In this document: positions 11,796 to 30,172 of the stretch, one piece after another
Position numbering within the stretch: the stretch's first letter is position 1
Layout of the letters: each line of letters starts with the position of its first letter
Assembly: GCA_900552655.1 (NCBI GenBank)
Contig: USAE01000001.1
Location: 3,392-67,391, forward strand
Length of the DNA: 64,000 nucleotides
Reading direction: 5' to 3'
Origin: an uncultured Clostridium sp.
GTDB lineage: Bacteria > Bacillota > Clostridia > TANB77 > CAG-508
Program-made: the position numbers and the translations under genes
The notes under the pieces: generated by a model
What the model was told of the DNA's origin: nothing
Databases searched by the model: none
Seen by the model: the letters and a program-made list of their open reading frames with translations, nothing else

Positions 11796-12743
11796 CTATT
11801 TCATCTGTAAATACCATTTAATATTTATACATAACAAAATTCTTTTTATTAATTGTTTTAAATTTCTTATCCTTATATTTTTTACCATTTTTCTTTGTTG
11901 TATTTCTTTAATAAATTCTTCTTGTTCTTTTTCGTGTAATTCCTTTGTTTTTAATATTATTGCATTAGTATAATAAATTCTTAAGTTCTGTTTTGTTCTT
12001 TTATTAAGATTAAATTCATTAGTTAATTTAATAGCATTGTCATAATGTTTTAAAGCATCATATGCTTTTTTTATAGTCTTATTATAGTCTTCATTTCTTG
12101 TTATACTATTATCACTTTGAACATAATAGTAACCATAAAAATTTATAGAAGCCATTGTTTTAGCAAATACAATAATAAAAGGAATTAATCCAAAATCTTC
12201 ATGTTCTGTTCCAACTGCAAATTTCAAATTATTTCTTACAAATATATCTTTTTTTATTAAATACACACAAGGAGAATCTAATAATACATCTGTTGAATAT
12301 AAGTCATTAAAGCCTTCTTCTCCTGTTTTTGTTTCGAATGTTGCACCTGGTACTATTTCTAAAGTTTTTCCAGAATCATCCACTCTTTGTAATTTAAATT
12401 TTATTAGTTCTACTTCATTATTAATATAATTTTCCAAGTTTTTAAATAATGCTTTATCAATATAATCATCTGAATCTAAAAACATTATATAATCACCTGT
12501 AGCTTTTTCTATTCCAAAATTCCTAGTATCAGCAACGCCAGTATTATCTTTTTTATAATAACTAATTAAATCTGGGTGCTTATCTTTATATTCTTTAATA
12601 ATAATTTCAGAATTGTCCTTACTTCCATCATTAATAATTACCAACTCTACGTTTGGATAATTTTGTTCTATTACCGAATCAAAACATCTTTTTAAATATT
12701 TTTCCGTATTATATACTGGAATAATAACACTAATTTTTTTCAT
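11796..12743 (-). CDS. Glycosyltransferase family 2.
   Basis: MKKISVIIPVYNTEKYLKRCFDSVIEQNYPNVELVIINDGSKDNS...MFLDSDDYI. Confidence 0.85.
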   Translation of the reverse strand: MKKISVIIPVYNTEKYLKRCFDSVIEQNYPNVELVIINDGSKDNSEIIIKEYKDKHPDLISYYKKDNTGVADTRNFGIEKATGDYIMFLDSDDYIDKALFKNLENYINNEVELIKFKLQRVDDSGKTLEIVPGATFETKTGEEGFNDLYSTDVLLDSPCVYLIKKDIFVRNNLKFAVGTEHEDFGLIPFIIVFAKTMASINFYGYYYVQSDNSITRNEDYNKTIKKAYDALKHYDNAIKLTNEFNLNKRTKQNLRIYYTNAIILKTKELHEKEQEEFIKEIQQRKMVKNIRIRNLKQLIKRILLCINIKWYLQMK

Positions 12744-12765: not shown

Positions 12766-12796
12766 CGGGATTCGGGGACGGTCCTTAAAATCCCGG
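12766..12796. repeat. GC-rich palindromic REP-like element, copy A (reverse orientation). It sits inside the glycan operon between two co-directional GT genes.
   Basis: CGGGATT-CGGGGACGGTCCTTA-AAATCCCGG, a 7-bp outer stem, followed by T7 on the plus strand. It is related to the copies at 19039, 55402 and 58399, and to the degenerate copy at 48918. Confidence 0.7.
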
Positions 12797-12860
12797 TTGC
12801 TTTTTTTGCTTCTAATATATTTTTTAAGAGCCCATAACGCTTCTTGTTTAAAGTGAACTT

Positions 12861-13958
12861 TTAATAACGTCCCCAAAGTTCATTTAACTTTTCATATATT
12901 TTGTTATTATATTCTTCTGCATCAAATTTTTTGGTTATTTCGTAGCCTTTTTCTATGTATTGTTTCATGGCTTTATAAATTTCGTTTTCATCTTTTTCTA
13001 CAACTATTCCATGTCCTTCTATCTGCTCAGAATCTGAAACATTTGTAGTTATAATCGGCTTTTGCATTACAAAAGATTCTAAATATACTACTGGATAACC
13101 TTCATAATCTGAAGATAAGACTACACAATCTGCTAATTTAAAATATGGATATGGATTTTTCTTTCTTCCTAAGAAAATAATTTCTTTTTCTAATCCTTTT
13201 TCTTTTACTTGTTTTCTGTAAAGCTCTGTATCTGGTCCATCGCCTATAAATATTATCCTAAATTTTTTATTATCTTTTTTTAGTTTTTCTGCTGAATAAA
13301 TTACTCTTGTTAACTTCTTTTGTTTTTCATCATGTCTTCCCACATTTAAAAATGTAACCACATTTTCTTTTTTTAAATCATTTATAGGTTCTTCAGCTTT
13401 ATTTAATATTCGTTTATAATTTATTAAATTATTACATACATAAACTCTATCTTTTAATTTTGGAAAAGCTTTTATAAAACTCTCTTTTCCTTCGTTTGAA
13501 ACAAATACAATATTTTTAAATTTTGATATTTTCCTTTTATAAAAAAAATCTTTCATTTCTTCTATATTATTATTGTATAAAGATAGATAATCAGCATGTC
13601 CCCATATAGCATTATTCTTCGAGCATGTTCTTGCTATAAAGCTTGATGGTATGGAATATGTCGCAAAACTTGCTGAAAAATCAAATTTATTTTTGTATTT
13701 TTTTATAAATTTATATCTTTTTACTAAATTACTTATTTTTCGTTTAATTACATTCTTTTCATTTGATGGTGCATATTCTATTATATTTATATTTGGAGAA
13801 ATTTTATCTAAAAAAACTCCCTCTTTTTTTTCTAAAGCAATTGTTATTTCATAACCTTTTTCTAGCAAAAAATTTGTAAGAGTTACAAGCGATGTTTCTA
13901 TTCCACCTAGGTCTAAATTATATGCTGCAAATAATATTTTTTTCATACAAGATTTCAT
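12861..13958 (-). CDS. Glycosyltransferase family 4.
   Basis: MKSCMKKILFAAYNLDLGGIETSLVTLTNFLLEKGYEI...GRHDEKQKKLTRVI...IFIGDGPD...KNPYPYFKLADCVVLSSDYEGYPVVYLESF. Confidence 0.85.
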   Translation of the reverse strand: MKSCMKKILFAAYNLDLGGIETSLVTLTNFLLEKGYEITIALEKKEGVFLDKISPNINIIEYAPSNEKNVIKRKISNLVKRYKFIKKYKNKFDFSASFATYSIPSSFIARTCSKNNAIWGHADYLSLYNNNIEEMKDFFYKRKISKFKNIVFVSNEGKESFIKAFPKLKDRVYVCNNLINYKRILNKAEEPINDLKKENVVTFLNVGRHDEKQKKLTRVIYSAEKLKKDNKKFRIIFIGDGPDTELYRKQVKEKGLEKEIIFLGRKKNPYPYFKLADCVVLSSDYEGYPVVYLESFVMQKPIITTNVSDSEQIEGHGIVVEKDENEIYKAMKQYIEKGYEITKKFDAEEYNNKIYEKLNELWGRY

Positions 13959-15258: not shown

Positions 15259-17121
15259 TTATTCTTTTGTCTTATCTTTTTGAAGTTCTACATATCTTTT
15301 TATTTTCATTGTTGTTGTTTTAGCAAATTCGTCATGTTTTAATTCTAGATTTTTTATTGCTTTATATGATGTTAAACTTTTATTTACTTCTTTTATTTTG
15401 TTCCAAATTATTTTGTGTATTTCTTCTTCTTTTAAGTCTTTTCCATGTAATCTTTCTATTTCTTCTTTGTTTGGTATTACTTTTACAGAAATTATTAGTT
15501 CTTTTTCGCCCTCTACTTCTTTACCATATACCATACATTCTGCAATTTCTGGTATCTTTGATAATAAAAGTTCTATTTCTTCTGGGTAAATATTTTTTCC
15601 ATTTTGTGTTACTATAACATTTTTACTTCTTCCTGTAACATATACATATCCATCTTTATCTTGATATCCAATATCTCCAGAATTAAACCAGCCATCATAT
15701 ACTACTTCTTTTGTTGCTTCTTCATCTTCGTAATAACCAAGCATTAATGTTTTACTTTTTATCCAAATTTCTCCTTCACCATTTTCATTTGGATTATGTA
15801 TTTTTATTTGAGCACAATTTACTGGAATACCTACAGATCCTACTCTTGGATCACATTCTGGTGTAAGCGCTGCAATAGGTGCTGTTTCTGTTAAGCCATA
15901 TCCTTGCAGAAATTCTATTCCTATATCTTGAACCCATCTTCCTATTTTTTTATCTATTGGCGCTGCAGCAGAAACTATTATTCTCATATTCCCACCTAAA
16001 TTGTCATATATTTCTTTAAATACTTTTCTTTTTATATCTATTCCTACACCTTTTAATGCATTTGTTACATGTATCATAGAATTTACAAGACCTGCTTTTC
16101 CGCTTTTTTCTATAGTTTGGTTAATTTTTTTGTATAAGTTTTCTACTAGTAATGGAACAGCAAGCATTGCAGTTGGCTTTGCTTCTTGCATATCTGGAAC
16201 AATATATCTTAATCCTCCACAAACAGTAACTGAAGAACCATTTGCAAATGGTAGTAATGCTCCAATTGAAGATTCATATGTATGATGAAGTGGTAATACA
16301 GAAAAAAATCTATCGCTTTCATATATTTTTACATATTTTGAAACTGCATTTACATTTTCTGCTAAGTTTCTATGGCATAGCATAACTCCTTTTGCTTGTG
16401 AGGTAGTTCCAGAAGTAAATATTAAAAATTTAAATTCCTCTGGGTCTATTTCTATATCCATATATTCTGTATTTCCTGAGTCTGTTATTTTTTTACCTTC
16501 TTCTATTACTTTTTCTATTCCTATATCTCTGCCTTGTAAATTTGCATCACTATTCATCTCAATAAAATATTTAACCATTGGAAGATTATCTTTTATTTTA
16601 TCTATTGCATCTTTTTTCTTTTTAGAAAAGATTACAGCAGATGCATGTGAACGTTTTATTACATTTTCTATTTCATTATTTGGTAATTCTTTATCTACTG
16701 GAACAGCAATTCCAGCACCACATAAAATAGAAAAATAAGATACATACCAATAATATGTATTTTCACCTATTATTATAATTCTTTCGCCTTTTAGATTTAA
16801 ATGTTTTATAAGACCTGTTCCTAAATTAATAACATCATTACCAAATCTTTCATAAGTAAATTCTTCAAATTTAGCTTTGTGGTCATGTTCTGGTCTTTCT
16901 AAAATATAAATGTTATTTTTATATTTTTCTATAGATCTTTTGAAAATCTCTTTTACATCTGTGTAATGAGTTTCTTCGTAAAACTTATTTTTAAACTTTT
17001 TATCTTTCATTTTTTCTATTTGATCATAATTAATTTGCATTTCTTCGATGTCTTCCATACCTTCCATTTTCATTTTAGGAAATTTAAAATCTGGCATTTT
17101 AAAATCTCTTAATATTCTCAT
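15259..17121 (-). CDS. AMP-forming acyl-CoA synthetase / long-chain fatty-acid--CoA ligase (FadD-like).
   Basis: 620 aa. AMP-binding motifs FTSGTTSQAKGVMLCHRNL, YGLTETAP and GWFNSGDIGYQDKDGYVYVTGRSKN. Confidence 0.85.
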   Translation of the reverse strand: MRILRDFKMPDFKFPKMKMEGMEDIEEMQINYDQIEKMKDKKFKNKFYEETHYTDVKEIFKRSIEKYKNNIYILERPEHDHKAKFEEFTYERFGNDVINLGTGLIKHLNLKGERIIIIGENTYYWYVSYFSILCGAGIAVPVDKELPNNEIENVIKRSHASAVIFSKKKKDAIDKIKDNLPMVKYFIEMNSDANLQGRDIGIEKVIEEGKKITDSGNTEYMDIEIDPEEFKFLIFTSGTTSQAKGVMLCHRNLAENVNAVSKYVKIYESDRFFSVLPLHHTYESSIGALLPFANGSSVTVCGGLRYIVPDMQEAKPTAMLAVPLLVENLYKKINQTIEKSGKAGLVNSMIHVTNALKGVGIDIKRKVFKEIYDNLGGNMRIIVSAAAPIDKKIGRWVQDIGIEFLQGYGLTETAPIAALTPECDPRVGSVGIPVNCAQIKIHNPNENGEGEIWIKSKTLMLGYYEDEEATKEVVYDGWFNSGDIGYQDKDGYVYVTGRSKNVIVTQNGKNIYPEEIELLLSKIPEIAECMVYGKEVEGEKELIISVKVIPNKEEIERLHGKDLKEEEIHKIIWNKIKEVNKSLTSYKAIKNLELKHDEFAKTTTMKIKRYVELQKDKTKE

Positions 17122-17192
17122 AATTATCTCACTCCTATACTTTTACTATTATGTCACAATAATTAAATTTTGTAAATAATTTTTCCCGTTTC

Positions 17193-17208
17193 TGTACTAC
17201 CCAGTACA
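17193..17208. promoter_or_regulatory. Palindromic candidate operator in the divergent fadD-like / thioesterase intergenic region.
   Basis: TGTACTacccAGTACA, a 6-bp inverted repeat with a 4-nt spacer. It is GTAC-cored like the FapR-type boxes of Firmicute lipid regulons. It lies about 70 nt upstream of the thioesterase ATG. Confidence 0.3.
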
Positions 17209-17276
17209 ATTGTAATTTTATTTTTTATATGATAAAATCAATTATAAATTTTACTAAACTATAAGGAGGCTTTAAA

Positions 17277-18005
17277 ATGGCTTTTTTCGAACATGATTTC
17301 GAAATTGGATTACGAGATATAGAAAATCCTAATTTTTTGAGTAATAAATCTATATTAGCTTTTTTAGAAAATATCGGTTCTTATCATTCAGATAGCATTA
17401 ACTTTGGTCTTAATAACATACCTTTAACACACTCATCTTGGGTATTACTTGGTTGGAAAGTACAAGTATTAAAAAGGCCTGTTTATGGTGATAAATTGCA
17501 CATTATAACATGGGCAAAAAATCCGGAAAAGTTTTCTACTTATCGTGATTTTGAAGTATATAATAGTACTAATGAACTAGTTATAATTGCAACTTCTAAA
17601 TGGGTTTTAATTGATACAACTACTGGCAAATTAAAACCGATTCCCGAAGAAATACTTAATTTATACCACCCAGATACAAAAAATGTATTTTCTGAAGAAG
17701 AATCTTTACTAAAGAAATTGAATGTTTCTGAAAATTATATTTCTTCCTGTACATATACTGTTAGTCGCTCTCAAATTGATTTAAACAACCATATGCATAA
17801 CTTATATTACTTAGATATGGCTTATGAAGTATTACCAGCAGATGTTTATAACAATATGTTTAATTATTTTGAAATATCTTATAAAAAGCAAATTCGACTT
17901 CACGAACAAGTAAAATGTTACTATACTTTTGAAGAAAATACTCATAAAGTAATTATAAAAAGTCTAAATGACAAAATAACCCATGCAATTATTTTCTTAA
18001 GGTAA
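17277..18005 (+). CDS. Acyl-[acyl-carrier-protein] thioesterase (FatA/B-like hotdog).
   Basis: The RBS is TAAGGAGG. The protein is MAFFEHDFEIGLRDIE...SSWVLLGWKVQVLKRP...WVLIDTTTGKLKPIPEE, typical of the acyl-ACP thioesterase family. Confidence 0.8.
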   Translation: MAFFEHDFEIGLRDIENPNFLSNKSILAFLENIGSYHSDSINFGLNNIPLTHSSWVLLGWKVQVLKRPVYGDKLHIITWAKNPEKFSTYRDFEVYNSTNELVIIATSKWVLIDTTTGKLKPIPEEILNLYHPDTKNVFSEEESLLKKLNVSENYISSCTYTVSRSQIDLNNHMHNLYYLDMAYEVLPADVYNNMFNYFEISYKKQIRLHEQVKCYYTFEENTHKVIIKSLNDKITHAIIFLR

Positions 18006-18071
18006 CTAAAAAACTCACCTAAGATTTTTTAACAATTATAAATTCTAAAACATCTTATAAGCATATAGTGC

Positions 18072-18117
18072 AAAAACGAATACCAATTTTTTATAAAAAT
18101 TTGGTATTCGTTTTTTT
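18072..18117. terminator. Bidirectional intrinsic terminator between the convergent thioesterase and deacetylase genes.
   Basis: AAAAACGAATACCAA-tttttt ataaaaat-TTGGTATTCGTTTTTTTATT, a 14-bp perfect stem flanked by A and T runs on both sides. Confidence 0.75.
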
Positions 18118-18979
18118 ATTCTAATAAATCATAAATATTTTCGAAAACATAACCTTTTTCTTTTAACATTTGTATCAATCGTGGTAAAAGTTCAGATGTT
18201 CCTTTTTTTATACCTGTGTCATGCATTAAAATTACTACACTGTTCTTATTTCCTATTGTTTTTTCTACATACTTTAACATTTCATCTACATTTTCTAAGC
18301 CCGCTGCATCTGCTGTTAGCGCATTCCAGTCTAAATGTGCCACATTATTTTGGTTTAGCAAATTAACAGCATCTTTTTTTGTGTTTGCATATTTTCCTCC
18401 CGATGTTCCCCCCGGAAATCTAAATAGTCTAGAATTATAATTTTGATTTCCTATTGCATTTTTTATAGCAATTTCTGTTCTATTATACTCATCTAAAACA
18501 TTTTGAGGTGATGCATATATATTAGCATACACATGTGTAAAACTATGATTAGCTATATAATGTCCTTCTTGATATGCTCTTTTTACTATTTCTGGATATC
18601 TTTCAGCATTACTTCCCAAAACAAAAAATGTCGCTTTTACGTTATTTTCTTTTAATATATCTAAAATTGGAATTGTAACAGACTTAGATGGTCCATCATC
18701 AAATGTTAAAAATACTCTTTTATAGTTTGAGTTATATATATTTGCTACTCTATTAACTATTTCATTCTTTTTTACTTCATCTGAATAAAATAATTTGTGC
18801 TCTGGTACACTTTTTTGAGATATTTTTTGTTCGATTATACTTAATTTATTATAATAATTACGTATACCAAAAAATGAAGATACAGCTACAATTGCTATTA
18901 TTAATAAGATAGAAATTGTAATTAATATTACTTTTTTTTTATTTAATCTTGGTTTAATTTCTATTAAATCTAATGTCAT
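18116..18979 (-). CDS. Polysaccharide deacetylase (NodB/PdaA family) with an N-terminal transmembrane anchor.
   Basis: NodB motifs ...RVFLTFDDGPS... and ...ILMHD..., with an N-terminal hydrophobic segment LITISILLIIAIVAVSSFFGI. Confidence 0.8.
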   Translation of the reverse strand: MTLDLIEIKPRLNKKKVILITISILLIIAIVAVSSFFGIRNYYNKLSIIEQKISQKSVPEHKLFYSDEVKKNEIVNRVANIYNSNYKRVFLTFDDGPSKSVTIPILDILKENNVKATFFVLGSNAERYPEIVKRAYQEGHYIANHSFTHVYANIYASPQNVLDEYNRTEIAIKNAIGNQNYNSRLFRFPGGTSGGKYANTKKDAVNLLNQNNVAHLDWNALTADAAGLENVDEMLKYVEKTIGNKNSVVILMHDTGIKKGTSELLPRLIQMLKEKGYVFENIYDLLE

Positions 18980-19038
18980 CTTTGCTCACCTAATAATTGT
19001 ATTTAACACATTATATATTAATTTTTTCAAAAATTCAA

Positions 19039-19070
19039 CCGGGATTTTAAGGGCTGTCCCAAAATCCCGG
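19039..19070. repeat. GC-rich palindromic REP-like element, copy B (forward orientation). It sits immediately 3' of the ATPase gene.
   Basis: CCGGGATTTT-AAGGGCTGTCCC-AAAATCCCGG, a 10-bp outer stem. On the minus strand it is followed by TTGAATTTTTG, so it probably acts as the ATPase terminator. Confidence 0.7.
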
Positions 19071-19078
19071 CTACTATG

Positions 19079-21877
19079 TTATGCTTCTTCTTTTGATGTA
19101 TTTATTTTTAATAGTTTGAATATTTCTACTATTACTAGTGGCGCTAGTATTAATAATATTGTTTCTATTAAATTACTCATAGGTAAAATTGGTATACTAA
19201 ATATGTGTCTTAATGCTGGTACTAATAATATTACAAGCATTAATGCTGCTGAGCCACCTATTGCTAGCAATAGCATTTTGTTGTTAAATGGATGTGTTTT
19301 AAATATAGATTTTTTATTATTTCTAATATTAAATACATGTACAAGTTCTGAAAATGCTAATACTATAAACGCCATTGTTTGGCCTATTTCTACTTTTACT
19401 TCTTGTGGTTCTACATATTTGGCTCCATTTGCTAAATCTTCATCTAAATTTTCTACCTCTTCTACGCTATATAATGTTCCTTCTACTCTTACCATTTTTG
19501 GTAAATTTTCTTCTGGTGTAGCAAGACCTATTATAAATGCTGCAAGTGTAAGTAAGCCAATCATAATACCTTGATATACTACTCTAAAGCTCATTCCTTT
19601 TGTAAATATACCTTTTTGCTTATTAGGTTTTCTTTTCATTACATCATCTTCAGCTGGGTCTACTGCTAAGGCTAATGCTGGAAGTGAATCTGTTACTAAA
19701 TTAACCCATAATATATGAATTGGAAGTAATACTTCTATTAAACCAATATCTATTCCAAATGTGCTTCCAAGCCATGGTGTTAAAAGAATTGCAAGGAATA
19801 ATACTATTATTTCACCAACATTGCTAGAAAGTAAAAATTGTATTGCTTTTAATATATTGTCATAAATACGTCTTCCTTCCTCTACAGAAGATACGATAGT
19901 TGCAAAATTGTCGTCTGTTAAAATTACATCTGCTGCTTCCTTAGAAACATCTGTACCTACAATTCCCATTGCACAACCAATATCAGCTGTTTTTAATGCT
20001 GGTGCATCGTTTACACCATCACCTGTCATTGCTACAATTTCGCCATTTGCTTGCCATGCTTTTACTATTCTAACTTTATGCTCTGGTGATACTCTTGCAT
20101 ATACAGAATATTTCCTAATGTTTTTTGTTAAGTCCTCGTCTGACATTTCTTCAAGATCTTGACCTGTTATTGCTTCTTCTTCATTTTCAAGTATTCCTAA
20201 TGCTTTTGCAATTGCAACAGCTGTTATTTTATGGTCACCTGTAATCATTACAGTCTTTATTCCTGCGGTCTTACATTTTTCTACTGCTACTTTAACTTCT
20301 TCTCTTGGTGGGTCTATCATTCCAACCATACCAACATATATTAAATCATTTTCTATAGTTTTCATTTCGTCATCTGTTGGTTCATGGTCTAGTTCCTTAT
20401 ATGCCATTGCTAATACTCTTAAAGCTTCTTTTGCCATGCTAATGTTGTATTTATCTATTACAGATTTATAATTTTCTAAATCTGTTTTAATTTCCCCATT
20501 TACTGAATAAGAATTACATCTTGCAAGTAATTCATCAATTCCACCTTTTGTATAAACAACATATTTATCTCCTACTTTGTTTACAGTTGTCATTAATTTT
20601 CTGTCTGAATCGAATGGAATTTCTTTTATTCTTTTTAATTTTAAAATTTCTTTAACATTATATCCTATTTTAAATCCTAAATCTATTAGTGCTGTTTCTG
20701 TTGGATCTCCTGTTAATTGGTCTTCTGCACCAATTTTAGTGTCATTACATAATGTACATACTTCCATTACTTTATTTAATTCATTGCTTATTTCTTTCAC
20801 ATTTGCAACATCTTCTAAATTTCCATTTGCAAATATTTTTTGAACTGTCATTTTATTTTGTGTTAAAGTTCCTGTTTTATCTGAACATATAACTGTAGCA
20901 CTTCCTAAAGTTTCTACAGCTGGTAATTTCTTTATTATTGCATTTTTCTTTACCATTCTTTGTACCCCAATTGCTAAAACAATTGTAGATACTGCTGCTA
21001 AACCTTCTGGTATTGCTGCAACTGCTAAGCTTACAGCTGTCATAAACATATCTATTACATTTTTTCCATATGCAATACCTATTACAAATATTACTACACA
21101 TATTGCAAGGGCTGCTATTCCTAATGTTTTACCTAATTTATTTAGCTTTGTTTGAAGTGGTGTTTCTGTTCCTTCTGTATCGTTAATTATTTTTGCAATT
21201 TTACCAACTTCTGTATTCATTCCTGTTTCTACAACAATACCTTTTCCTCTTCCATATGTTATAAGTGAAGATGAGAAAAGCATATTTTTTCTATCACCAA
21301 GACTAATTTTTTCGTCTTCTATTATTTCTGTGTCTTTATCTACAGGGACAGATTCTCCTGTTAAAGATGCTTCTTGTGATTTTAGATTTGCACTTTCTAC
21401 TATTCTTAAATCTGCTGGCACATAGTCACCTGTATCTAAAACAACTACATCACCTGGAACTAGTTCTTTAGATTGTACAACACTTATTTTTCCATTACGC
21501 ATAACTTTTGATGCATGTGCACTTAACTTTTGTAGAGCTTCTAAAGATTTTTCTGCTTTACTTTCTTGTACTACACCGATTATTGCATTAACTATAACTA
21601 CTATTAGAATAATAATTGTATCTGTTATTCCTTCTCCTTCTGCAATTCCTACTGCTCCAGAAACTACTGCTGCTACAATTAAAACAATTATCATAAAATC
21701 TTTAAATTGTTCTAAGAATTTTACAAATAAAGATTTTTTCTTTTTTTGTTTTAATTCATTCATTCCATACTTTTCGTAATTTGCTTTTACTTGTTCGTCT
21801 GTCAAGCCTGTTTTAATGTCTGTTTGTAATTCTTTTTCTACTTGACTTATTCCTTTGTTAAACCAATTCACTTCCAT
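19079..21877 (-). CDS. P-type cation-transporting ATPase, type IIA/PMCA-like Ca2+ (or Mn2+) pump.
   Basis: 932 aa. ICSDKTGTLTQN (phosphorylation site), TGDGVNDAPALKTADIGCAMG, ten TM segments, and a PEGL-type motif (AIPEGL). Confidence 0.9.
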   Translation of the reverse strand: MEVNWFNKGISQVEKELQTDIKTGLTDEQVKANYEKYGMNELKQKKKKSLFVKFLEQFKDFMIIVLIVAAVVSGAVGIAEGEGITDTIIILIVVIVNAIIGVVQESKAEKSLEALQKLSAHASKVMRNGKISVVQSKELVPGDVVVLDTGDYVPADLRIVESANLKSQEASLTGESVPVDKDTEIIEDEKISLGDRKNMLFSSSLITYGRGKGIVVETGMNTEVGKIAKIINDTEGTETPLQTKLNKLGKTLGIAALAICVVIFVIGIAYGKNVIDMFMTAVSLAVAAIPEGLAAVSTIVLAIGVQRMVKKNAIIKKLPAVETLGSATVICSDKTGTLTQNKMTVQKIFANGNLEDVANVKEISNELNKVMEVCTLCNDTKIGAEDQLTGDPTETALIDLGFKIGYNVKEILKLKRIKEIPFDSDRKLMTTVNKVGDKYVVYTKGGIDELLARCNSYSVNGEIKTDLENYKSVIDKYNISMAKEALRVLAMAYKELDHEPTDDEMKTIENDLIYVGMVGMIDPPREEVKVAVEKCKTAGIKTVMITGDHKITAVAIAKALGILENEEEAITGQDLEEMSDEDLTKNIRKYSVYARVSPEHKVRIVKAWQANGEIVAMTGDGVNDAPALKTADIGCAMGIVGTDVSKEAADVILTDDNFATIVSSVEEGRRIYDNILKAIQFLLSSNVGEIIVLFLAILLTPWLGSTFGIDIGLIEVLLPIHILWVNLVTDSLPALALAVDPAEDDVMKRKPNKQKGIFTKGMSFRVVYQGIMIGLLTLAAFIIGLATPEENLPKMVRVEGTLYSVEEVENLDEDLANGAKYVEPQEVKVEIGQTMAFIVLAFSELVHVFNIRNNKKSIFKTHPFNNKMLLLAIGGSAALMLVILLVPALRHIFSIPILPMSNLIETILLILAPLVIVEIFKLLKINTSKEEA

Positions 21878-22029
21878 CTCTCCTTTTTTATATTATACAC
21901 AAAAAGCAAGACTTTAAAAAACTTTCTGTGTTTTCTAAAAGTCTTGCTTACCTAAATTAGGTTACTAACCAGAATAGTTCGAGTCTGTTGATTAGTAGTT
22001 TATAAGCTACTCCCTTTTAAAGTAGTTGT
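21878..22029 (-). promoter_or_regulatory. Structured 5' leader of the P-type ATPase, with an intrinsic terminator/attenuator just before the RBS. It is a riboswitch candidate.
   Basis: The minus-strand leader reads ...ACTACTTTAAAAGGGAGTAGC...ACTAATCAACAGACTCGAACTATTCTGGTTAGT..., then AAGCAAGACTTT-(21 nt)-AAAGTCTTGCTTTTTGTGT (a 12-bp perfect stem plus U-run, 21905..21949), then AAAAAGGAGAGATG. Confidence 0.45.
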
Positions 22030-22058
22030 ATTGTATCACTTAATATATTCTTTTTCAA
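22030..22058 (-). promoter_or_regulatory. Sigma-A type promoter for the ATPase leader.
   Basis: On the minus strand, TTGAAA (-35), a 17-nt spacer, then TACAAT (-10). Confidence 0.5.
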
Positions 22059-22096
22059 TATCTAATTGCAAAAATTTGTCTTTAAATAAATCTTTC

Positions 22097-22786
22097 CTAT
22101 TTAGCATATAAAATTAATCTTGCAGAACCATTTTGTGAACATGTTGCAAGTGTTATTTCTGGGGCACCACCTGTATCTCTAAACATATAATTTGTATCTT
22201 GTGGAGATGTTTCAAATTTATTATATATTGTATATTCTACTGTTACGCCATATAAGTCTGTAATATACACTTTATCCCCTATATTTAAATTCTTATTTTT
22301 AGAAAAGAATAATCTATTTAAATAATTATGACCTGCAATTACTGTATTACCTGGTTCATTCGGTCCTGGACCATATTCCACACATACGCCTTTTTCTAGA
22401 GCCTGTTTTGAAAGTGTAGATATAATTGGATATTTTATTCCTGTTTTTGGAATTCTTATATATCCACATATATCATAATTATAATATTTTTTCACACTTT
22501 TTTTAGACTTAGATTTTCTTGCATTATTCACTGTTTTAGCTTTATTTTTTTTAGTGTTTTCTCCTTGGTTTTCAACATTTTCTACTGTTTCGTCATTTAT
22601 TATATCTTCTTCTAGTTCTCCTATTTCATTTTCAAATTCTGCTATATATTCTTCCGAATCATCATTTATAATTTTAGCAGAAATAAATTTATAAGCTATA
22701 TAACCTGCAATGCATAATAACGCTATTAATAATATTATAAAAAAAACATTTAAAATTTTTTTATATGTTTCTTCTGCTGTACTCAT
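22097..22786 (-). CDS. Sortase family transpeptidase (class B-like) with an N-terminal membrane anchor.
   Basis: ...IPKTGIKYPI...GNTVIAGHN...PEITLATCSQNG..., giving catalytic H and TLxTC with C, plus an N-terminal TM. Confidence 0.8.
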   Translation of the reverse strand: MSTAEETYKKILNVFFIILLIALLCIAGYIAYKFISAKIINDDSEEYIAEFENEIGELEEDIINDETVENVENQGENTKKNKAKTVNNARKSKSKKSVKKYYNYDICGYIRIPKTGIKYPIISTLSKQALEKGVCVEYGPGPNEPGNTVIAGHNYLNRLFFSKNKNLNIGDKVYITDLYGVTVEYTIYNKFETSPQDTNYMFRDTGGAPEITLATCSQNGSARLILYAK

Positions 22787-22867
22787 TTTTTCCTCCTAAT
22801 TCTCGGGATTTAATAAAATTTAACCTTGCTAAATGTTCAAAATCTACCGATTTTTCCTATACAATAA

Positions 22868-22907
22868 AAATTTTAAAAGTGAATTGTACAAAATTACAAT
22901 TCACTTT
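22868..22907. terminator. Bidirectional terminator between the two sortase genes.
   Basis: AAAAGTGAATTGTA-caaaat-TACAATTCACTTTT, a 14-bp perfect palindrome with A and T flanks. Confidence 0.6.
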
Positions 22908-22929
22908 TAAACAAAAATCAATCTATGTA

Positions 22930-23601
22930 TTAATTAACAAGTCTTGCCCAAATTATAATTCTTGCTTTGCTATCATCTGTACAAGTAGTTAAAGATATTT
23001 CTGGTTTTCCGTCTGTATTTCTTTCCATATAGTCTGAATCTTCTGGAGTTGTTTCATATTTATTATATATTTCATATTTTAATTTATTTCCGGCGTTATC
23101 TGCAATATATATAATATCTCCATTTTGTAATTTGTAATTATTTGAAAAGAATTGCCCATTTCTATAATTATGCCCTGCAATTACTGTATTTCCTACTTGG
23201 TTTGGTCCTGGACCATATAGTTGTACTACAGATGTATTCATTGCTTTTGTTCCCATTTGCTTTAATATTGGAAGGTCTACGTTAGTTTTTGGTATTTCTA
23301 TTGCTCCCAAAACATCGAACCCTTTAAATTTCTTTTCACCTGTACCACCATTACCACTTGTGTTTGAAACAGAGTTAACATCCATTAGTGAATTAAAATC
23401 ACCTACAACATTGTTTGTTTCTAAAGGTTTTATTCCTGTATTGTTTCCAAATTCTTCTTCCATAAAAGCTTGAGTATCTTCTTCTAGAAAATATTTTGTA
23501 TACATTTCATAACCTAAAAATCCTAATAGTCCAACTATTCCAATTATTACAACAACTAATAATACAGTTAGTATTTTACTATATTTACTATCTATAAACA
23601 T
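22930..23601 (-). CDS. Sortase family transpeptidase, second tandem paralog.
   Basis: ...IEIPKTNVDLPIL...GNTVIAGHNYRNGQFF...PEISLTTCTDD..., the same architecture as the 22097 gene. Confidence 0.8.
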   Translation of the reverse strand: MFIDSKYSKILTVLLVVVIIGIVGLLGFLGYEMYTKYFLEEDTQAFMEEEFGNNTGIKPLETNNVVGDFNSLMDVNSVSNTSGNGGTGEKKFKGFDVLGAIEIPKTNVDLPILKQMGTKAMNTSVVQLYGPGPNQVGNTVIAGHNYRNGQFFSNNYKLQNGDIIYIADNAGNKLKYEIYNKYETTPEDSDYMERNTDGKPEISLTTCTDDSKARIIIWARLVN

Positions 23602-24032: not shown

Positions 24033-24048
24033 GTTTGTGCCTCCATAA

Positions 24049-29966: not shown

Positions 29967-30019
29967 AATATCACCTTCTTATATATTATATGATTTTTTT
30001 ATGTAATTGTGCTAATCTA

Positions 30020-30172
30020 AAAAGCGTACCTAAGCTTTTCTAGCAAATGTAAATTCTAAGAAAATCTAAGGTACGCCATAATTATCTAGTACAGAAATTT
30101 ATCCTACCAGGATAAATTTCTTACTATCTAAAAAAGCACTCTGCTAAAAAACAAAGTGCTACTATATATAAA
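30020..30172 (+). ncRNA. Copy 1 of a repeated approximately 150-nt structured element. It has hairpin 1 with an internal loop, a conserved CATAATT linker, a long hairpin 2, and a terminal hairpin. It is a candidate sRNA family.
   Basis: AAAAGCGTACCtaagcTTTTCTag..taAGAAAAtctaaGGTACGCcataatt atcTAGTACAGAAATTTATCCT-ACC-AGGATAAATTTCTTACTAtctaaaaaAGCACTctgctaaaaaacaaAGTGCT. Similar copies lie at 55446 and 58217, with compensatory stem changes between copies. Confidence 0.55.

What the first reader, a model, noticed from the sequence alone, without database searches (positions are those of the whole stretch)
19039..19070. Family of GC-rich (about 32-bp) palindromic REP-like elements in an AT-rich genome. 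There are four good copies plus one degenerate copy, in both orientations.
The copies lie at 12766-12796 (reverse), 19039-19070 (forward), 55402-55433 (reverse), 58399-58429 (forward), plus a degenerate copy at 48918-48947 (forward). The consensus is C(C)GGGATTTT-AAGGACCGTCCC-AAAATCCCGG, with a 7-10-bp outer stem and a small inner palindrome (GGAC-n-GTCC). All copies are intergenic. Most lie at 3' ends of genes, and some are followed by T-runs, so they can act as terminators. The GC content (about 60%) is conspicuous against a roughly 25% GC background. This pattern (short imperfect palindromes, both orientations, intergenic, multi-copy) is what defines REP/BIME-type elements. I do not know a named family of this sequence in Clostridia.
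Basis: seen in the sequence. Interest (0 to 1): 0.6.

Follow-up and report, generated by a model that had tools for sequence, protein, structure and literature searches.

The report
REP-type palindromes with a cognate RAYT
The GC-rich 30-bp hairpins are real members of a dispersed repeat family shared by many uncultured gut Clostridia, and in related genomes the same repeats flank a single-copy RAYT-type tyrosine transposase gene, so this is a REP/RAYT-type system from a group where such systems are barely documented.

Summary
Four good copies and one decayed copy lie at the stated coordinates. I found three more members: a variant-stem copy at 12855-12881, a decayed copy at 48282-48309 and a remnant at 22802-22811.

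The family is not confined to this genome. A pattern scan hit more than 117 stretches, nearly all from over 30 species-level MAGs of low-GC gut Clostridia. Copies are extragenic, and their AATCCC end sits within a few bases of a stop codon or a ribosome-binding site.

Adjacent copies occur as R...F or as tandem pairs, essentially never as F...R. Some R...F composites fold into long hairpins.

In nine related genomes, R and F copies flank a single-copy 255-aa gene. It has a HuH motif and a Y---NP motif. Its best fold match is the E. coli RAYT bound to a REP hairpin. It also carries a C-terminal HTH-like tail.

Comparing related genomes shows filled and empty sites, so copies are gained and lost.

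The elements are therefore REP/REPIN-type repeats of a RAYT (TIRYT-like) system, and some have probably been co-opted as terminators. They lack the GTAG guide. No RAYT gene lies in the window, and I could not check the rest of its genome. I rate this a new member of a known kind, of moderate interest.

The parts
12766..12796 (-). REP copy 1 (GGGATTT-stem type). On the sense (-) strand it is in F orientation. Its core ends 23 nt before the ATG of the GT2 glycosyltransferase ORF 11796-12743.
   Evidence: 39 bits. The RNA hairpin is -13.1 kcal/mol. Flanking genes were named by Pfam.
12855..12881 (+). Variant-stem REP copy, GAACTTTTAATAACGTCCCCAAAGTTC. It supplies the last 6 codons (ELWGRY) and the stop codon of ORF 12861-13958(-). 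It is the R partner of copy 1, 58 nt away, and together they form an R...F doublet.
   Evidence: 1 match, 0.02 expected by chance. The same stem type flanks the RAYT gene in L118, L132 and L138.
19039..19070 (+). REP copy 2. On the sense (-) strand it is in R orientation, 8 nt after the stop codon of the P-type ATPase ORF 19079-21877. It is followed by a T-run and a promoter-like site for ORF 18116-18979. It is probably an intrinsic terminator.
   Evidence: The - strand hairpin is -22.6 kcal/mol, z = -4.0. It is called terminator-like, with TTGAAT-17-TATAAT just downstream. It is retained at the orthologous site in L094 and L092.
22802..22811 (+). Remnant (CTCGGGATTT) of a copy. The copy is intact at the orthologous site of the 94%-identical relative L094 and absent from L092.
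   Evidence: (row 61).
48282..48309 (+). Decayed copy with 8 of 28 mismatches, 5 nt after the stop codon of ORF 48315-48821(-).
48918..48947 (+). Decayed copy with 7 of 28 mismatches. It lies downstream of ORF 49023-49556(-) and of that gene's own terminator-like hairpin at 48966-48986.
   Evidence: It no longer folds well (z = +0.98).
55402..55433 (-). REP copy 3, between rpmE (55654-55854, -) and the radical-SAM methylthiotransferase ORF 53899-55311(-). It abuts a copy of the second repeat family. It is lineage-specific: absent from six relatives that encode an identical L31 protein.
   Evidence: and the alignment.
58399..58429 (+). REP copy 4, 5 nt after the stop codon of the HD-domain ORF 58435-59217(-). 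That ORF converges with the D-Ala-D-Ala carboxypeptidase ORF 56960-58204(+). A copy sits at the equivalent end-of-operon position in seven relatives.

Best explanation
These are REP-type (repetitive extragenic palindrome) hairpin repeats. They belong to a family shared by a clade of low-GC, roughly 1.7-1.9 Mb uncultured gut Clostridia.

The unit is a 7-9 bp stem (NN-GGGATTT / AAATCCC-NN, or in a variant GAACTTT / AAAGTTC). It closes a conserved 12-14 nt loop, (T)AAGGA[A/C]CGTCCC(YN).

The larger form is a polar doublet or composite, R1 R2 ... F2 F1, with the AATCCC ends facing outward. It can fold into a long hairpin, as a REPIN does.

The cognate enzyme is a single-copy, syntenic Y1 HuH nuclease of about 255 aa. 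It is of the RAYT / TnpA_REP kind and has a C-terminal HTH-like tail. In related genomes its gene sits between an R copy and an F copy, which is the REPtron / TIRtron layout.

The mechanism is inferred by analogy with E. coli TnpA_REP. The enzyme would bind the folded single-stranded hairpin, then cleave and rejoin DNA beside it. That would spread doublets into intergenic DNA and erode them. Singletons such as those in this window would be what is left after decay or internal deletion.

Once in place, copies that sit right after a stop codon are transcribed as 3' hairpins. Some, clearly the one at 19039-19070, probably serve as intrinsic terminators or protective 3' structures. That would explain why certain copies are kept across species.

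Shown here: the repeat family, its anatomy, its positional rules, its gain and loss between relatives, and its physical linkage to the RAYT-like gene.

Inferred: catalysis by that protein, current mobility, and any terminator or mRNA-stability role.
For: Family and non-randomness:
- Four copies against 0 expected by chance.
- More than 117 stretches, nearly all from over 30 gut Clostridia MAG assemblies.
- The three loop positions left free in the pattern are A (134/140), A or C, and C (138/140).

Extragenic position and polarity:
- 8 of 187 profile hits lie inside ORFs, in DNA that is 87% coding.
- The F 3' end is a median 1-19 nt from a gene boundary. The 5' side is 80-116 nt away.
- Among 47 singletons, 34 abut a stop codon on the opposite strand and only 2 lie between divergent genes.

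Arrangement:
- Adjacent pairs are -+ 40, ++ 28, -- 27 and +- 1. The single +- case is an overlap artefact.
- The L054 composite folds at -86 kcal/mol, z = -13.

Hairpin selection:
- The closing pairs covary. Pair 1 is Watson-Crick in 104 of 146 copies, against 84.7 +/- 3.4 in shuffles. Pair 2 is Watson-Crick in 59, against 36.7 +/- 5.1.
- A whole-stem swap, GGGATTT/AAATCCC to GAACTTT/AAAGTTC, keeps the same loop.

Cognate gene:
- tblastn with the E. coli RAYT sequence (checked against PDB entry 4ER8) found ORFs in L081, L076 and L085.
- Pfam Y1_Tnp matches at E about 1e-10. The best NCBIfam match is 'REP-associated tyrosine transposase', E 1e-16 to 1e-19.
- N60, H61, H63 (HuH) and Y121, N125, P126 (Y---NP) are invariant.
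- An AlphaFold2 model (pLDDT 82) matches 4ER8 best: E 3.5e-7, target TM 0.72.
- R upstream and F downstream flank the gene in L081, L076, L120, L123, L126, L128, L118, L132 and L138.
- The gene is single-copy and syntenic in two contexts.

Turnover:
- Filled versus empty sites: the window is empty at 24033-24048 where L092 and L014 are filled. L123 is filled where L120 is empty.
- The window keeps only a remnant where L094 has a full copy.
- The copy 2 loop is decayed in L094 while its stem is kept.

Terminator role: copy 2 is called terminator-like and has a promoter-like site just downstream.
Against: - No RAYT gene lies in the 64-kb window, and I could not scan the rest of the window's genome. 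That genome is apparently ENA ERZ27273503 contig_324_polypolish, which is identical over about 355 bp. It may have lost the gene.
- The canonical unpaired 5' GT[AG]G guide of classical REPs is absent.
- The RAYT-like proteins score 58-68 bits, below the NCBIfam equivalog cutoff of 80.
- One homolog locus (L130, P0091) shows no clear flanking copies.
- Published surveys found no REP-like hairpins next to the HTH-bearing subclass 2.1 RAYTs (PMC6006769). The analogy to that subclass is therefore not secured.
- No transposition or cleavage has been observed. Filled and empty sites could also arise by deletion.
- Only one of the window's copies passes the terminator scan.
- The genome-wide copy number is extrapolated, not counted.
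Confidence: 0.8

Rival explanations
1. The repeats are binding sites for a domesticated Y1-HTH protein that now serves a host function, such as chromosome structuring, replication-linked processing or regulation. On this view the repeats are no longer mobile and are maintained by selection.
For: - The gene is single-copy and sits in conserved synteny across species, like a housekeeping gene.
- It carries an HTH-like C-terminus.
- Some copies are kept at orthologous sites across species.
- Bertels et al. 2017 (PMC5581495) argue that RAYTs in general are domesticated.
Against: - Filled and empty sites and fast decay between 94%-identical genomes argue for turnover rather than maintenance.
- Neighbouring genes are functionally unrelated.
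- Copies avoid divergent promoter regions.
- This reading overlaps with the main one rather than excluding it.
Confidence: 0.12
2. They are simply intrinsic transcription terminators, or 3' mRNA-stabilising hairpins, that look alike through common descent or convergence. No mobility and no dedicated enzyme are involved.
For: - A-rich 5' and T-rich 3' flanks.
- Most singletons sit just after stop codons.
- Copy 2 scores as a terminator.
- The stem is kept while the loop decays in L094.
Against: - A 12-14 nt loop is kept almost invariant across more than 30 species. A terminator does not need that.
- Many copies lie in sense orientation immediately upstream of an SD and start codon, with no room for a promoter.
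- The R...F composites fold into hairpins of about 120 nt.
- The repeats flank a Y1 nuclease gene.
- Only 1 of the window's copies fits the terminator scan.
Confidence: 0.05
3. They are the termini of a MITE that is mobilised in trans by a conventional DDE transposase.
For: Composite elements of 110-400 nt have terminal inverted repeats and variable interiors.
Against: - Two aligned filled/empty comparisons show no target-site duplication.
- The only gene found bracketed by the termini is a Y1 HuH protein. No DDE transposase was seen between them.
- Each terminus is itself a hairpin with covarying stems.
Confidence: 0.02
4. It is a structured cis-regulatory RNA motif that acts on neighbouring genes.
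For: It has a conserved loop with an SD-like AAGGA, and it often lies just upstream of ribosome-binding sites.
Against: - Both orientations occur relative to transcription: 69 antisense against 41 sense between co-directional genes.
- Neighbouring genes are unrelated.
- Rfam gives no match at either threshold.
- Many copies lie between convergent genes.
Confidence: 0.02

Closest known systems
REP / BIME / REPIN elements with their RAYT (TnpA_REP), as in E. coli and Pseudomonas (PMC2817692, PMC3116915, PMC3333891, PMC3479197, PMC8266576)
   Same: - Short GC-rich imperfect palindromes, extragenic and multi-copy.
- They occur as singletons and as inverted doublets that fold into long hairpins.
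- They are depleted between divergent genes.
- A single-copy Y1 HuH gene is flanked by the repeats.
- The protein's best fold match is PDB 4ER8.
   Different: - There is no unpaired 5' GT[AG]G guide.
- The conserved determinant is a large loop (AAGGA[A/C]CGTCCC), while the stems vary.
- The protein has an extra C-terminal HTH-like region of about 100 aa.
- The host is a low-GC member of the Bacillota rather than a proteobacterium.
TIRtrons / TIRYTs (Di Nocera et al. 2013, PMC3733652), equated with RAYT group 1 (PMC5581495) and TnpA_Y1 subclass 2.1 (PMC6006769)
   Same: - A RAYT-like gene with an added C-terminal HTH is bracketed by inverted repeats.
- Those repeats also occur elsewhere in the genome as singles, dimers or clusters.
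- The published TIR motif GGGGWSAS is matched exactly by the inner copies (GGGGACAC). The outer copies (GGGGACGT) match 6 of 8 positions.
- Group 1 is reported in Clostridia.
   Different: - Published work found no REP-like hairpins beside subclass 2.1 genes. Flanking 16-mer abundance there was only about 12 copies per replicon.
- Here each terminus is a self-complementary hairpin, and density is 4-8 per 64 kb.
- Assignment of this protein to subclass 2.1 is inferred from its architecture. It was not tested by phylogeny.
CGTC-tagged REPs (Di Nocera et al. 2013)
   Same: The CGTC motif is conserved and changes to TGTC in the inner copies, as reported for that family. Dimers have a preferred relative orientation.
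   Different: - In CGTC REPs the tag is unpaired at the foot of an 8-9 bp stem, the loop is 4-5 nt, there is a CCA tail, and no transposase is linked.
- Here CGTC lies inside a 12-14 nt loop and a RAYT-like gene is linked.
- The family was not reported in Firmicutes.
IS200/IS605 subterminal hairpins and TnpA
   Same: Y1 HuH chemistry acting on folded single-stranded hairpins, and no target-site duplication.
   Different: - The gene is single-copy, syntenic and not multiplied as an IS.
- Its signature is Y---NP.
- The repeats far outnumber the gene.

Membership tests
REP (repetitive extragenic palindrome) | Short (20-40 bp) imperfect palindrome able to form a stem-loop | tested here: met
   Units of 28-32 bp. 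Hairpins of -8 to -23 kcal/mol. Closing pairs covary.
REP (repetitive extragenic palindrome) | Many dispersed copies per genome | tested here: inconclusive
   There are 4 good copies and 4 variant or decayed copies in 64 kb. Loci fetched through rpmE, and so unbiased, hold 1-2 copies per 12 kb. No whole-genome count was possible. About 100-200 copies per genome is only an extrapolation.
REP (repetitive extragenic palindrome) | Extragenic location, mostly between co-directional or convergent genes | tested here: met
   179 of 187 hits lie outside ORFs in DNA that is 87% coding. Only 2 of 47 singletons lie between divergent genes.
REP (repetitive extragenic palindrome) | Inverted doublets or clusters (BIME/REPIN) | tested here: met
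   There are 40 R...F pairs and essentially no F...R pairs. The L054 composite folds at -86 kcal/mol. The window has one doublet at 12766-12881.
REP (repetitive extragenic palindrome) | Conserved unpaired 5' GT[AG]G guide at the foot of the hairpin (classical GTAG REPs) | tested here: not met
   The 5' flank is A-rich and variable, with no GTAG in the column counts.
REP (repetitive extragenic palindrome) | Cognate RAYT gene flanked by the repeats (REPtron) | tested here: met
   Met in nine related genomes.
RAYT / TnpA_REP (class 2 TnpA_Y1) | HuH motif and catalytic Tyr in a Y---NP signature | tested here: met
   N60, H61, H63, Y121, N125 and P126 are invariant in 29-34 homologs. The signature definition is from PMC6006769.
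RAYT / TnpA_REP (class 2 TnpA_Y1) | Fold of the E. coli RAYT | tested here: met
   The AlphaFold2 model has pLDDT 82. Its top PDB match is 4ER8, E 3.5e-7, target TM 0.72, ahead of the IS200/IS605 TnpA structures.
RAYT / TnpA_REP (class 2 TnpA_Y1) | NCBIfam equivalog NF047646 score at or above the curated cutoff of 80 bits | tested here: not met
   Scores are 58-68 bits, E 1e-16 to 1e-19. It is the best-scoring family but falls below the cutoff. The proteins pass Pfam Y1_Tnp (40-42 bits against a cutoff of 23).
RAYT / TnpA_REP (class 2 TnpA_Y1) | Low copy number and vertical, syntenic inheritance | tested here: met
   Two conserved contexts: holB-PSP1-fdx-[gene]-POR and ruvB-PMT_2-[gene]-queH.
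RAYT / TnpA_REP (class 2 TnpA_Y1) | Cleavage and strand transfer on cognate single-stranded REP DNA | not testable with these tools
   This needs an in vitro assay.
TIRtron / TIRYT (subclass 2.1) | C-terminal HTH (Bac_DnaA_C / HTH_23 / HTH_28-like) on the Y1 core | tested here: inconclusive
   The C-terminal 80-100 aa are helical with a conserved ILGIGKNRI motif. Similarity to HTH proteins is only faint: sigma region 4 and Xre-type hits at E 0.4-0.8 and NCBIfam sigma70-ECF at E 0.009. No Pfam HTH family was reported at E <= 0.01.
TIRtron / TIRYT (subclass 2.1) | Flanking inverted repeats carrying GGGGWSAS | tested here: inconclusive
   Inner copies read GGGGACAC, an exact match. Outer copies read GGGGACGT or AGGGACGG, matching 6 of 8 positions.
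CGTC-tagged REP | Unpaired CGTC at the stem foot, an 8-9 bp stem, a 4-5 nt loop and a CCA tail | tested here: not met
   CGTC lies inside a 12-14 nt loop and there is no CCA tail. The definition is from PMC3733652.
MITE (DDE-mobilised) | Target-site duplication and a parental IS with the same TIRs | tested here: not met
   No duplication is seen at the filled/empty sites. The gene bracketed by the termini is a Y1 protein.
Intrinsic terminator | GC-rich stem, short loop and a U-tract | tested here: inconclusive
   The copy at 19039-19070 meets this on the - strand. The other copies are not called by the scan.
Rfam RNA families | Covariance-model match | tested here: not met
   Nothing at gathering threshold. 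At the E-value threshold only sub-threshold miRNA-hairpin look-alikes appear on composites.

The most novel reading that the evidence does not exclude
This would be the first well-defined REP/REPIN-RAYT system in the Bacillota, and it would attach a genuine hairpin repeat family to the HTH-bearing (subclass 2.1 / TIRYT-like) RAYTs, for which published surveys found no REPs. Recognition would differ from the E. coli mode. The enzyme would read a conserved loop (AAGGA[A/C]CGTCCC) presented on interchangeable stems, perhaps with help from the HTH domain, instead of a 5' GTAG guide plus a bulged stem. In these streamlined, 26% GC, roughly 1.7 Mb genomes the repeats would have been recruited on a large scale as gene-end hairpins.
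Probability: 0.3. Interest if true: 0.6.

Novelty: new member of a known kind. Interest (0 to 1): 0.45.

Why it matters
REP/RAYT systems have been studied almost entirely in Proteobacteria. For the largest RAYT branch, the one with a C-terminal HTH, no cognate hairpin repeats were known.

Here a clade of very common but uncultured gut Clostridia carries such a repeat family, visibly tied to such a gene. This gives three things:
- A concrete substrate-enzyme pair to test in vitro.
- A natural experiment in stem/loop co-variation that bears on what the enzyme recognises.
- A strain-level marker, because copies are gained and lost between genomes that are 94% identical.

It also explains the odd GC-rich islands that annotators will meet in these AT-rich MAGs. 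It warns that some gene 3' ends and stop codons there are supplied by the repeat.

Tried and rejected
- **Rfam.** The window at gathering threshold gave nothing. At the E-value threshold, the window and eight repeat-rich loci gave only sub-threshold miRNA-precursor look-alikes on the long composites, plus an unrelated tRNA and T-box.
- **Literature.** The exact 20-mers appear in no paper. No paper holds REPIN, RAYT and Firmicutes together.
- **Exact-protein look-up of the P-type ATPase.** Not on record.
- **Pfam on all window ORFs through the alignment route.** Only the 25 most frequent families are listed. It could not exclude a Y1 gene and showed only housekeeping content (recA, mutS, alaS, mreB, SpoIIP).
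- **IS608 TnpA query.** It found one IS200-type pseudogene in L115 (a stop codon was noted). That gene is far from the L115 repeat, so I judged it unrelated.
- **Viral contigs.** Only 4 matches in 2.9 million contigs, so this is not a phage feature.
- **CGTC-REP membership.** Considered because of the conserved CGTC/TGTC, then rejected on anatomy.
- **Other readings rejected.** A transcription-factor operator, a cis-regulatory RNA, a DDE-type MITE and a pure terminator, for the reasons given under rival explanations.
- **RAYT in the window's own genome.** I tried to locate it through cluster members and contig lengths. No member could be tied to the 1,718,230-bp contig that matches the window, so this stays unresolved.
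Full report
**Observation**

A search with GGGATTTTAAGGACCGTCCCAAAATCCC, allowing up to 3 mismatches, finds exactly four sites: 12767-12794(-), 19041-19068(+), 55404-55431(-) and 58400-58427(+). None is expected in 100 dinucleotide-preserving shuffles. The degenerate copy at 48919 has 7 mismatches out of 28. No site with 7 or fewer mismatches appeared in 30 Markov-1 random windows.

The window is 23-30% G+C, with strongly negative GC skew and nearly all genes on the - strand. The 56% G+C elements therefore stand out. All five lie between ORFs.

**Further members in the window**

- A variant with a different stem but the same loop core, GAACTTTTAATAACGTCCCCAAAGTTC, lies at 12855-12881(+) (0.02 expected by chance). 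It encodes the last six residues and the stop codon of the glycosyltransferase ORF 12861-13958. It lies 58 nt from copy 1 in the R...F arrangement.
- A decayed copy lies at 48282-48309.
- A remnant, CTCGGGATTT, lies at 22802-22811. The 94%-identical relative L094 has an intact copy at that position.

**Distribution**

Nearly all came from more than 30 MAG assemblies labelled uncultured Clostridia or Clostridium sp., from human, chicken, mouse and rabbit gut. Nine hits in other phyla are isolated and look like chance.

In about 140 copies, the three positions left free in the pattern are A (134/140), A or C (97 and 38) and C (138/140). The 3' arm, YNAATCCC, is conserved although it was not part of the pattern. 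Only 4 matches occur in 2.9 million viral contigs.

Part of the window (15430-23423) is 94% identical to a contig of MAG ERR9762703_bin.46. The rpmE region is identical over about 355 bp to ENA ERZ27273503 contig_324_polypolish, which is 1,718,230 bp long. That contig is probably the source genome.

**Anatomy and positional rules**

A profile search of the fetched loci gave 187 hits at E < 0.01.

- *Location.* Only 8 hits lie inside ORFs, although 87% of that DNA is coding.
- *Asymmetry.* With each element read in the consensus (F) orientation, its 3' AATCCC end is a median 1-19 nt from a gene boundary. That boundary is the stop codon of a gene on the other strand or the SD and start codon of a gene on the same strand. 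The 5' side is 80-116 nt from the next gene.
- *Singletons.* Of 47 singletons, 34 abut a stop codon, 11 abut a start codon, and only 2 lie between divergent genes.
- *Neighbouring copies.* Adjacent copies are arranged -+ (40), ++ (28) or -- (27), and essentially never +-.
- *Composite.* The typical composite is R1 R2 ... F2 F1, with the outer copies best conserved. The L054 example folds into a hairpin of about 120 nt at -86 kcal/mol, z = -13. L108 has a version of about 400 nt.
- *Covariation.* The two base pairs outside GGGA/TCCC covary. Watson-Crick pairing is seen in 104 of 146 copies against 84.7 +/- 3.4 in shuffles, and in 59 against 36.7 +/- 5.1. A whole alternative stem, GAACTTT/AAAGTTC, carries the same loop.

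The hairpin is therefore under selection, and the loop is the constant sequence.

**The linked gene**

I used the E. coli RAYT sequence, which I first verified as identical to PDB entry 4ER8. tblastn on the fetched loci gave three weak hits, all to the catalytic-Tyr region. These belong to ORFs of 256-280 aa.

- *Family matches.* The ORFs match Pfam Y1_Tnp at E about 1e-10, above its cutoff. Their best NCBIfam match is 'REP-associated tyrosine transposase' at E 1e-16 to 1e-19, which is below that model's cutoff.
- *Family size and motifs.* A database search found 555 homologs of about 255 aa. Alignments show an invariant HuH motif (N60, H61, H63) and Y121, N125, P126. The latter is the Y---NP signature of class 2 TnpA_Y1 proteins (PMC6006769).
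- *Fold.* An AlphaFold2 model has pLDDT 82. Its best PDB match is 4ER8, the E. coli RAYT bound to a REP hairpin, with E 3.5e-7 and target TM 0.72. This ranks ahead of the IS200/IS605 transposases.
- *C-terminus.* The C-terminal part is helical with a conserved ILGIGKNRI motif. Its similarity to HTH proteins is only faint.

**Linkage of gene and repeat**

In L081 and L076 the gene lies between an R copy upstream and an F copy downstream. The same holds for independently fetched homolog loci:

- L120, L123, L126 and L128, with GGGATTT-type stems.
- L118, L132 and L138, with GAACTTT-type stems. These belong to the window's own subclade.

One locus, L130, shows no clear copies.

The gene is single-copy and syntenic. 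It lies in holB-PSP1-ferredoxin-[gene]-POR in one group and in ruvB-PMT_2-[gene]-queH in the other. This is the REPtron / TIRtron layout, and the polarity R...gene...F is the same as in the gene-less composites.

**Turnover**

- At window 24033-24048 two genes are separated by about 17 nt. L092 (83% identical) has a 113-nt R...F composite at that site, and L014 has a 148-nt one. In both, the composite sits exactly between the stop codon and the next ribosome-binding site.
- L123 carries a 142-nt composite where L120 has none. No target-site duplication is visible in either case.
- Between the window and its 94% relative, one copy is intact only in the relative. Another has a decayed loop but an intact stem in the relative.
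- Copy 3, together with an adjacent unrelated repeat, is absent from six relatives that encode an identical L31 protein.
- In contrast, copy 4 has counterparts at the same end-of-operon position in seven relatives. Copy 2 is retained in three species.

**Function in the window**

Read on the sense strand, copy 2 is a -22.6 kcal/mol hairpin (z = -4). It starts 8 nt after the stop codon of a P-type ATPase gene and is followed by a T-run and a TTGAAT-17-TATAAT site. It is the only copy called terminator-like. The other copies form weaker hairpins of -8 to -13 kcal/mol.

Copy 1 and its partner fill the gap between two glycosyltransferase genes, so they are probably transcribed within an operon. 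A terminator or 3'-protection role is inference, by analogy with REPs elsewhere.

**Comparison with known systems**

The features match REP/BIME/REPIN elements and their RAYTs in every structural respect tested except one: the 5' GT[AG]G guide is absent.

The protein's extra C-terminal HTH-like tail points to the TIRtron/TIRYT group of Di Nocera et al. 2013 (PMC3733652). So does the GGGGAC motif in the repeats, which matches the published GGGGWSAS exactly in the inner copies. That group is equated with RAYT group 1 and TnpA_Y1 subclass 2.1 (PMC6006769).

For that subclass, published searches found no REP-like hairpins. Group 1 was noted in Clostridia with only about 12 copies of its flanking 16-mers (PMC5581495).

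CGTC-tagged REPs share the CGTC/TGTC motif but have a different anatomy. Rfam holds nothing comparable.

**Verdict**

I rate it a new member of a known kind. It comes from an under-studied host group and has some unusual recognition features that remain to be tested.

Main gaps:
- There is no whole-genome census.
- No RAYT has been shown for the window's own genome.
- There is no biochemical or transcript evidence.

Noticed in passing
window 30017-30140, 55445-55570, 58215-58340 (all +), partial copy at 18006-18055: A second, unrelated dispersed repeat of about 105-125 nt. It has two conserved hairpins: GCGTACCTAAG..CTTAGGTACGC with a 17-nt loop, and GTACAGAAATTTATCC..GGATAAATTTCTTAC. Compensatory changes are present. 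It has no Rfam match. Two copies sit next to REP copies (55402 and 58399). It also occurs in L094, L066, L042 and L007. It may be another mobile hairpin element or a small RNA.
   Followed up: partly
window 55311-55654 versus L144-L150: The rpmE-downstream intergenic region is a hot spot. Three different alleles occur among genomes that encode an identical L31: 212 nt; 342 nt with the second repeat plus a REP; and 341 nt with a different insert of about 130 nt.
   Followed up: partly
L051, L055, L074, L085 (for example L051 around 900-1010): Another GC-rich dispersed motif, AAACCCGGAACCGTTGG, sometimes as a palindrome around GGGGACATT..AATGTCCCC. It occurs in some of the same MAGs and is read through by ORFs as the residues PGTSGD.
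   Followed up: no
L115 6397-6750 (-): An IS200/IS605-type TnpA homolog (E 2e-19 to IS608 TnpA) with an internal stop codon. It lies far from the L115 repeat copy and appears unrelated to the repeat family.
   Followed up: partly
window 12861-12881; C-termini of RAYT homologs (L076 6198-6266): Repeat sequence is translated at gene 3' ends. ELWGRY* ends the window's glycosyltransferase. Tails such as LNPQNDDFKERPSNPHL occur on several RAYT homologs. The repeat therefore supplies C-terminal residues and stop codons.
   Followed up: partly
window as a whole; L144-L151: The L31 protein of this window is found unchanged in 10,575 blocks of the assembly collection, including many contigs of 1.7-1.85 Mb. 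The host therefore belongs to a very prevalent gut clade with small (about 1.7-1.9 Mb), 26% GC genomes and sporulation genes (SpoIIP, YtfJ).
   Followed up: no
window 18069-18122: A long perfect hairpin terminator lies downstream of the acyl-ACP thioesterase gene. It gave a sub-threshold Rfam hit to a plastid 3'UTR family (28.6 bits against a cutoff of 55.8). This is most likely just a generic hairpin.
   Followed up: no
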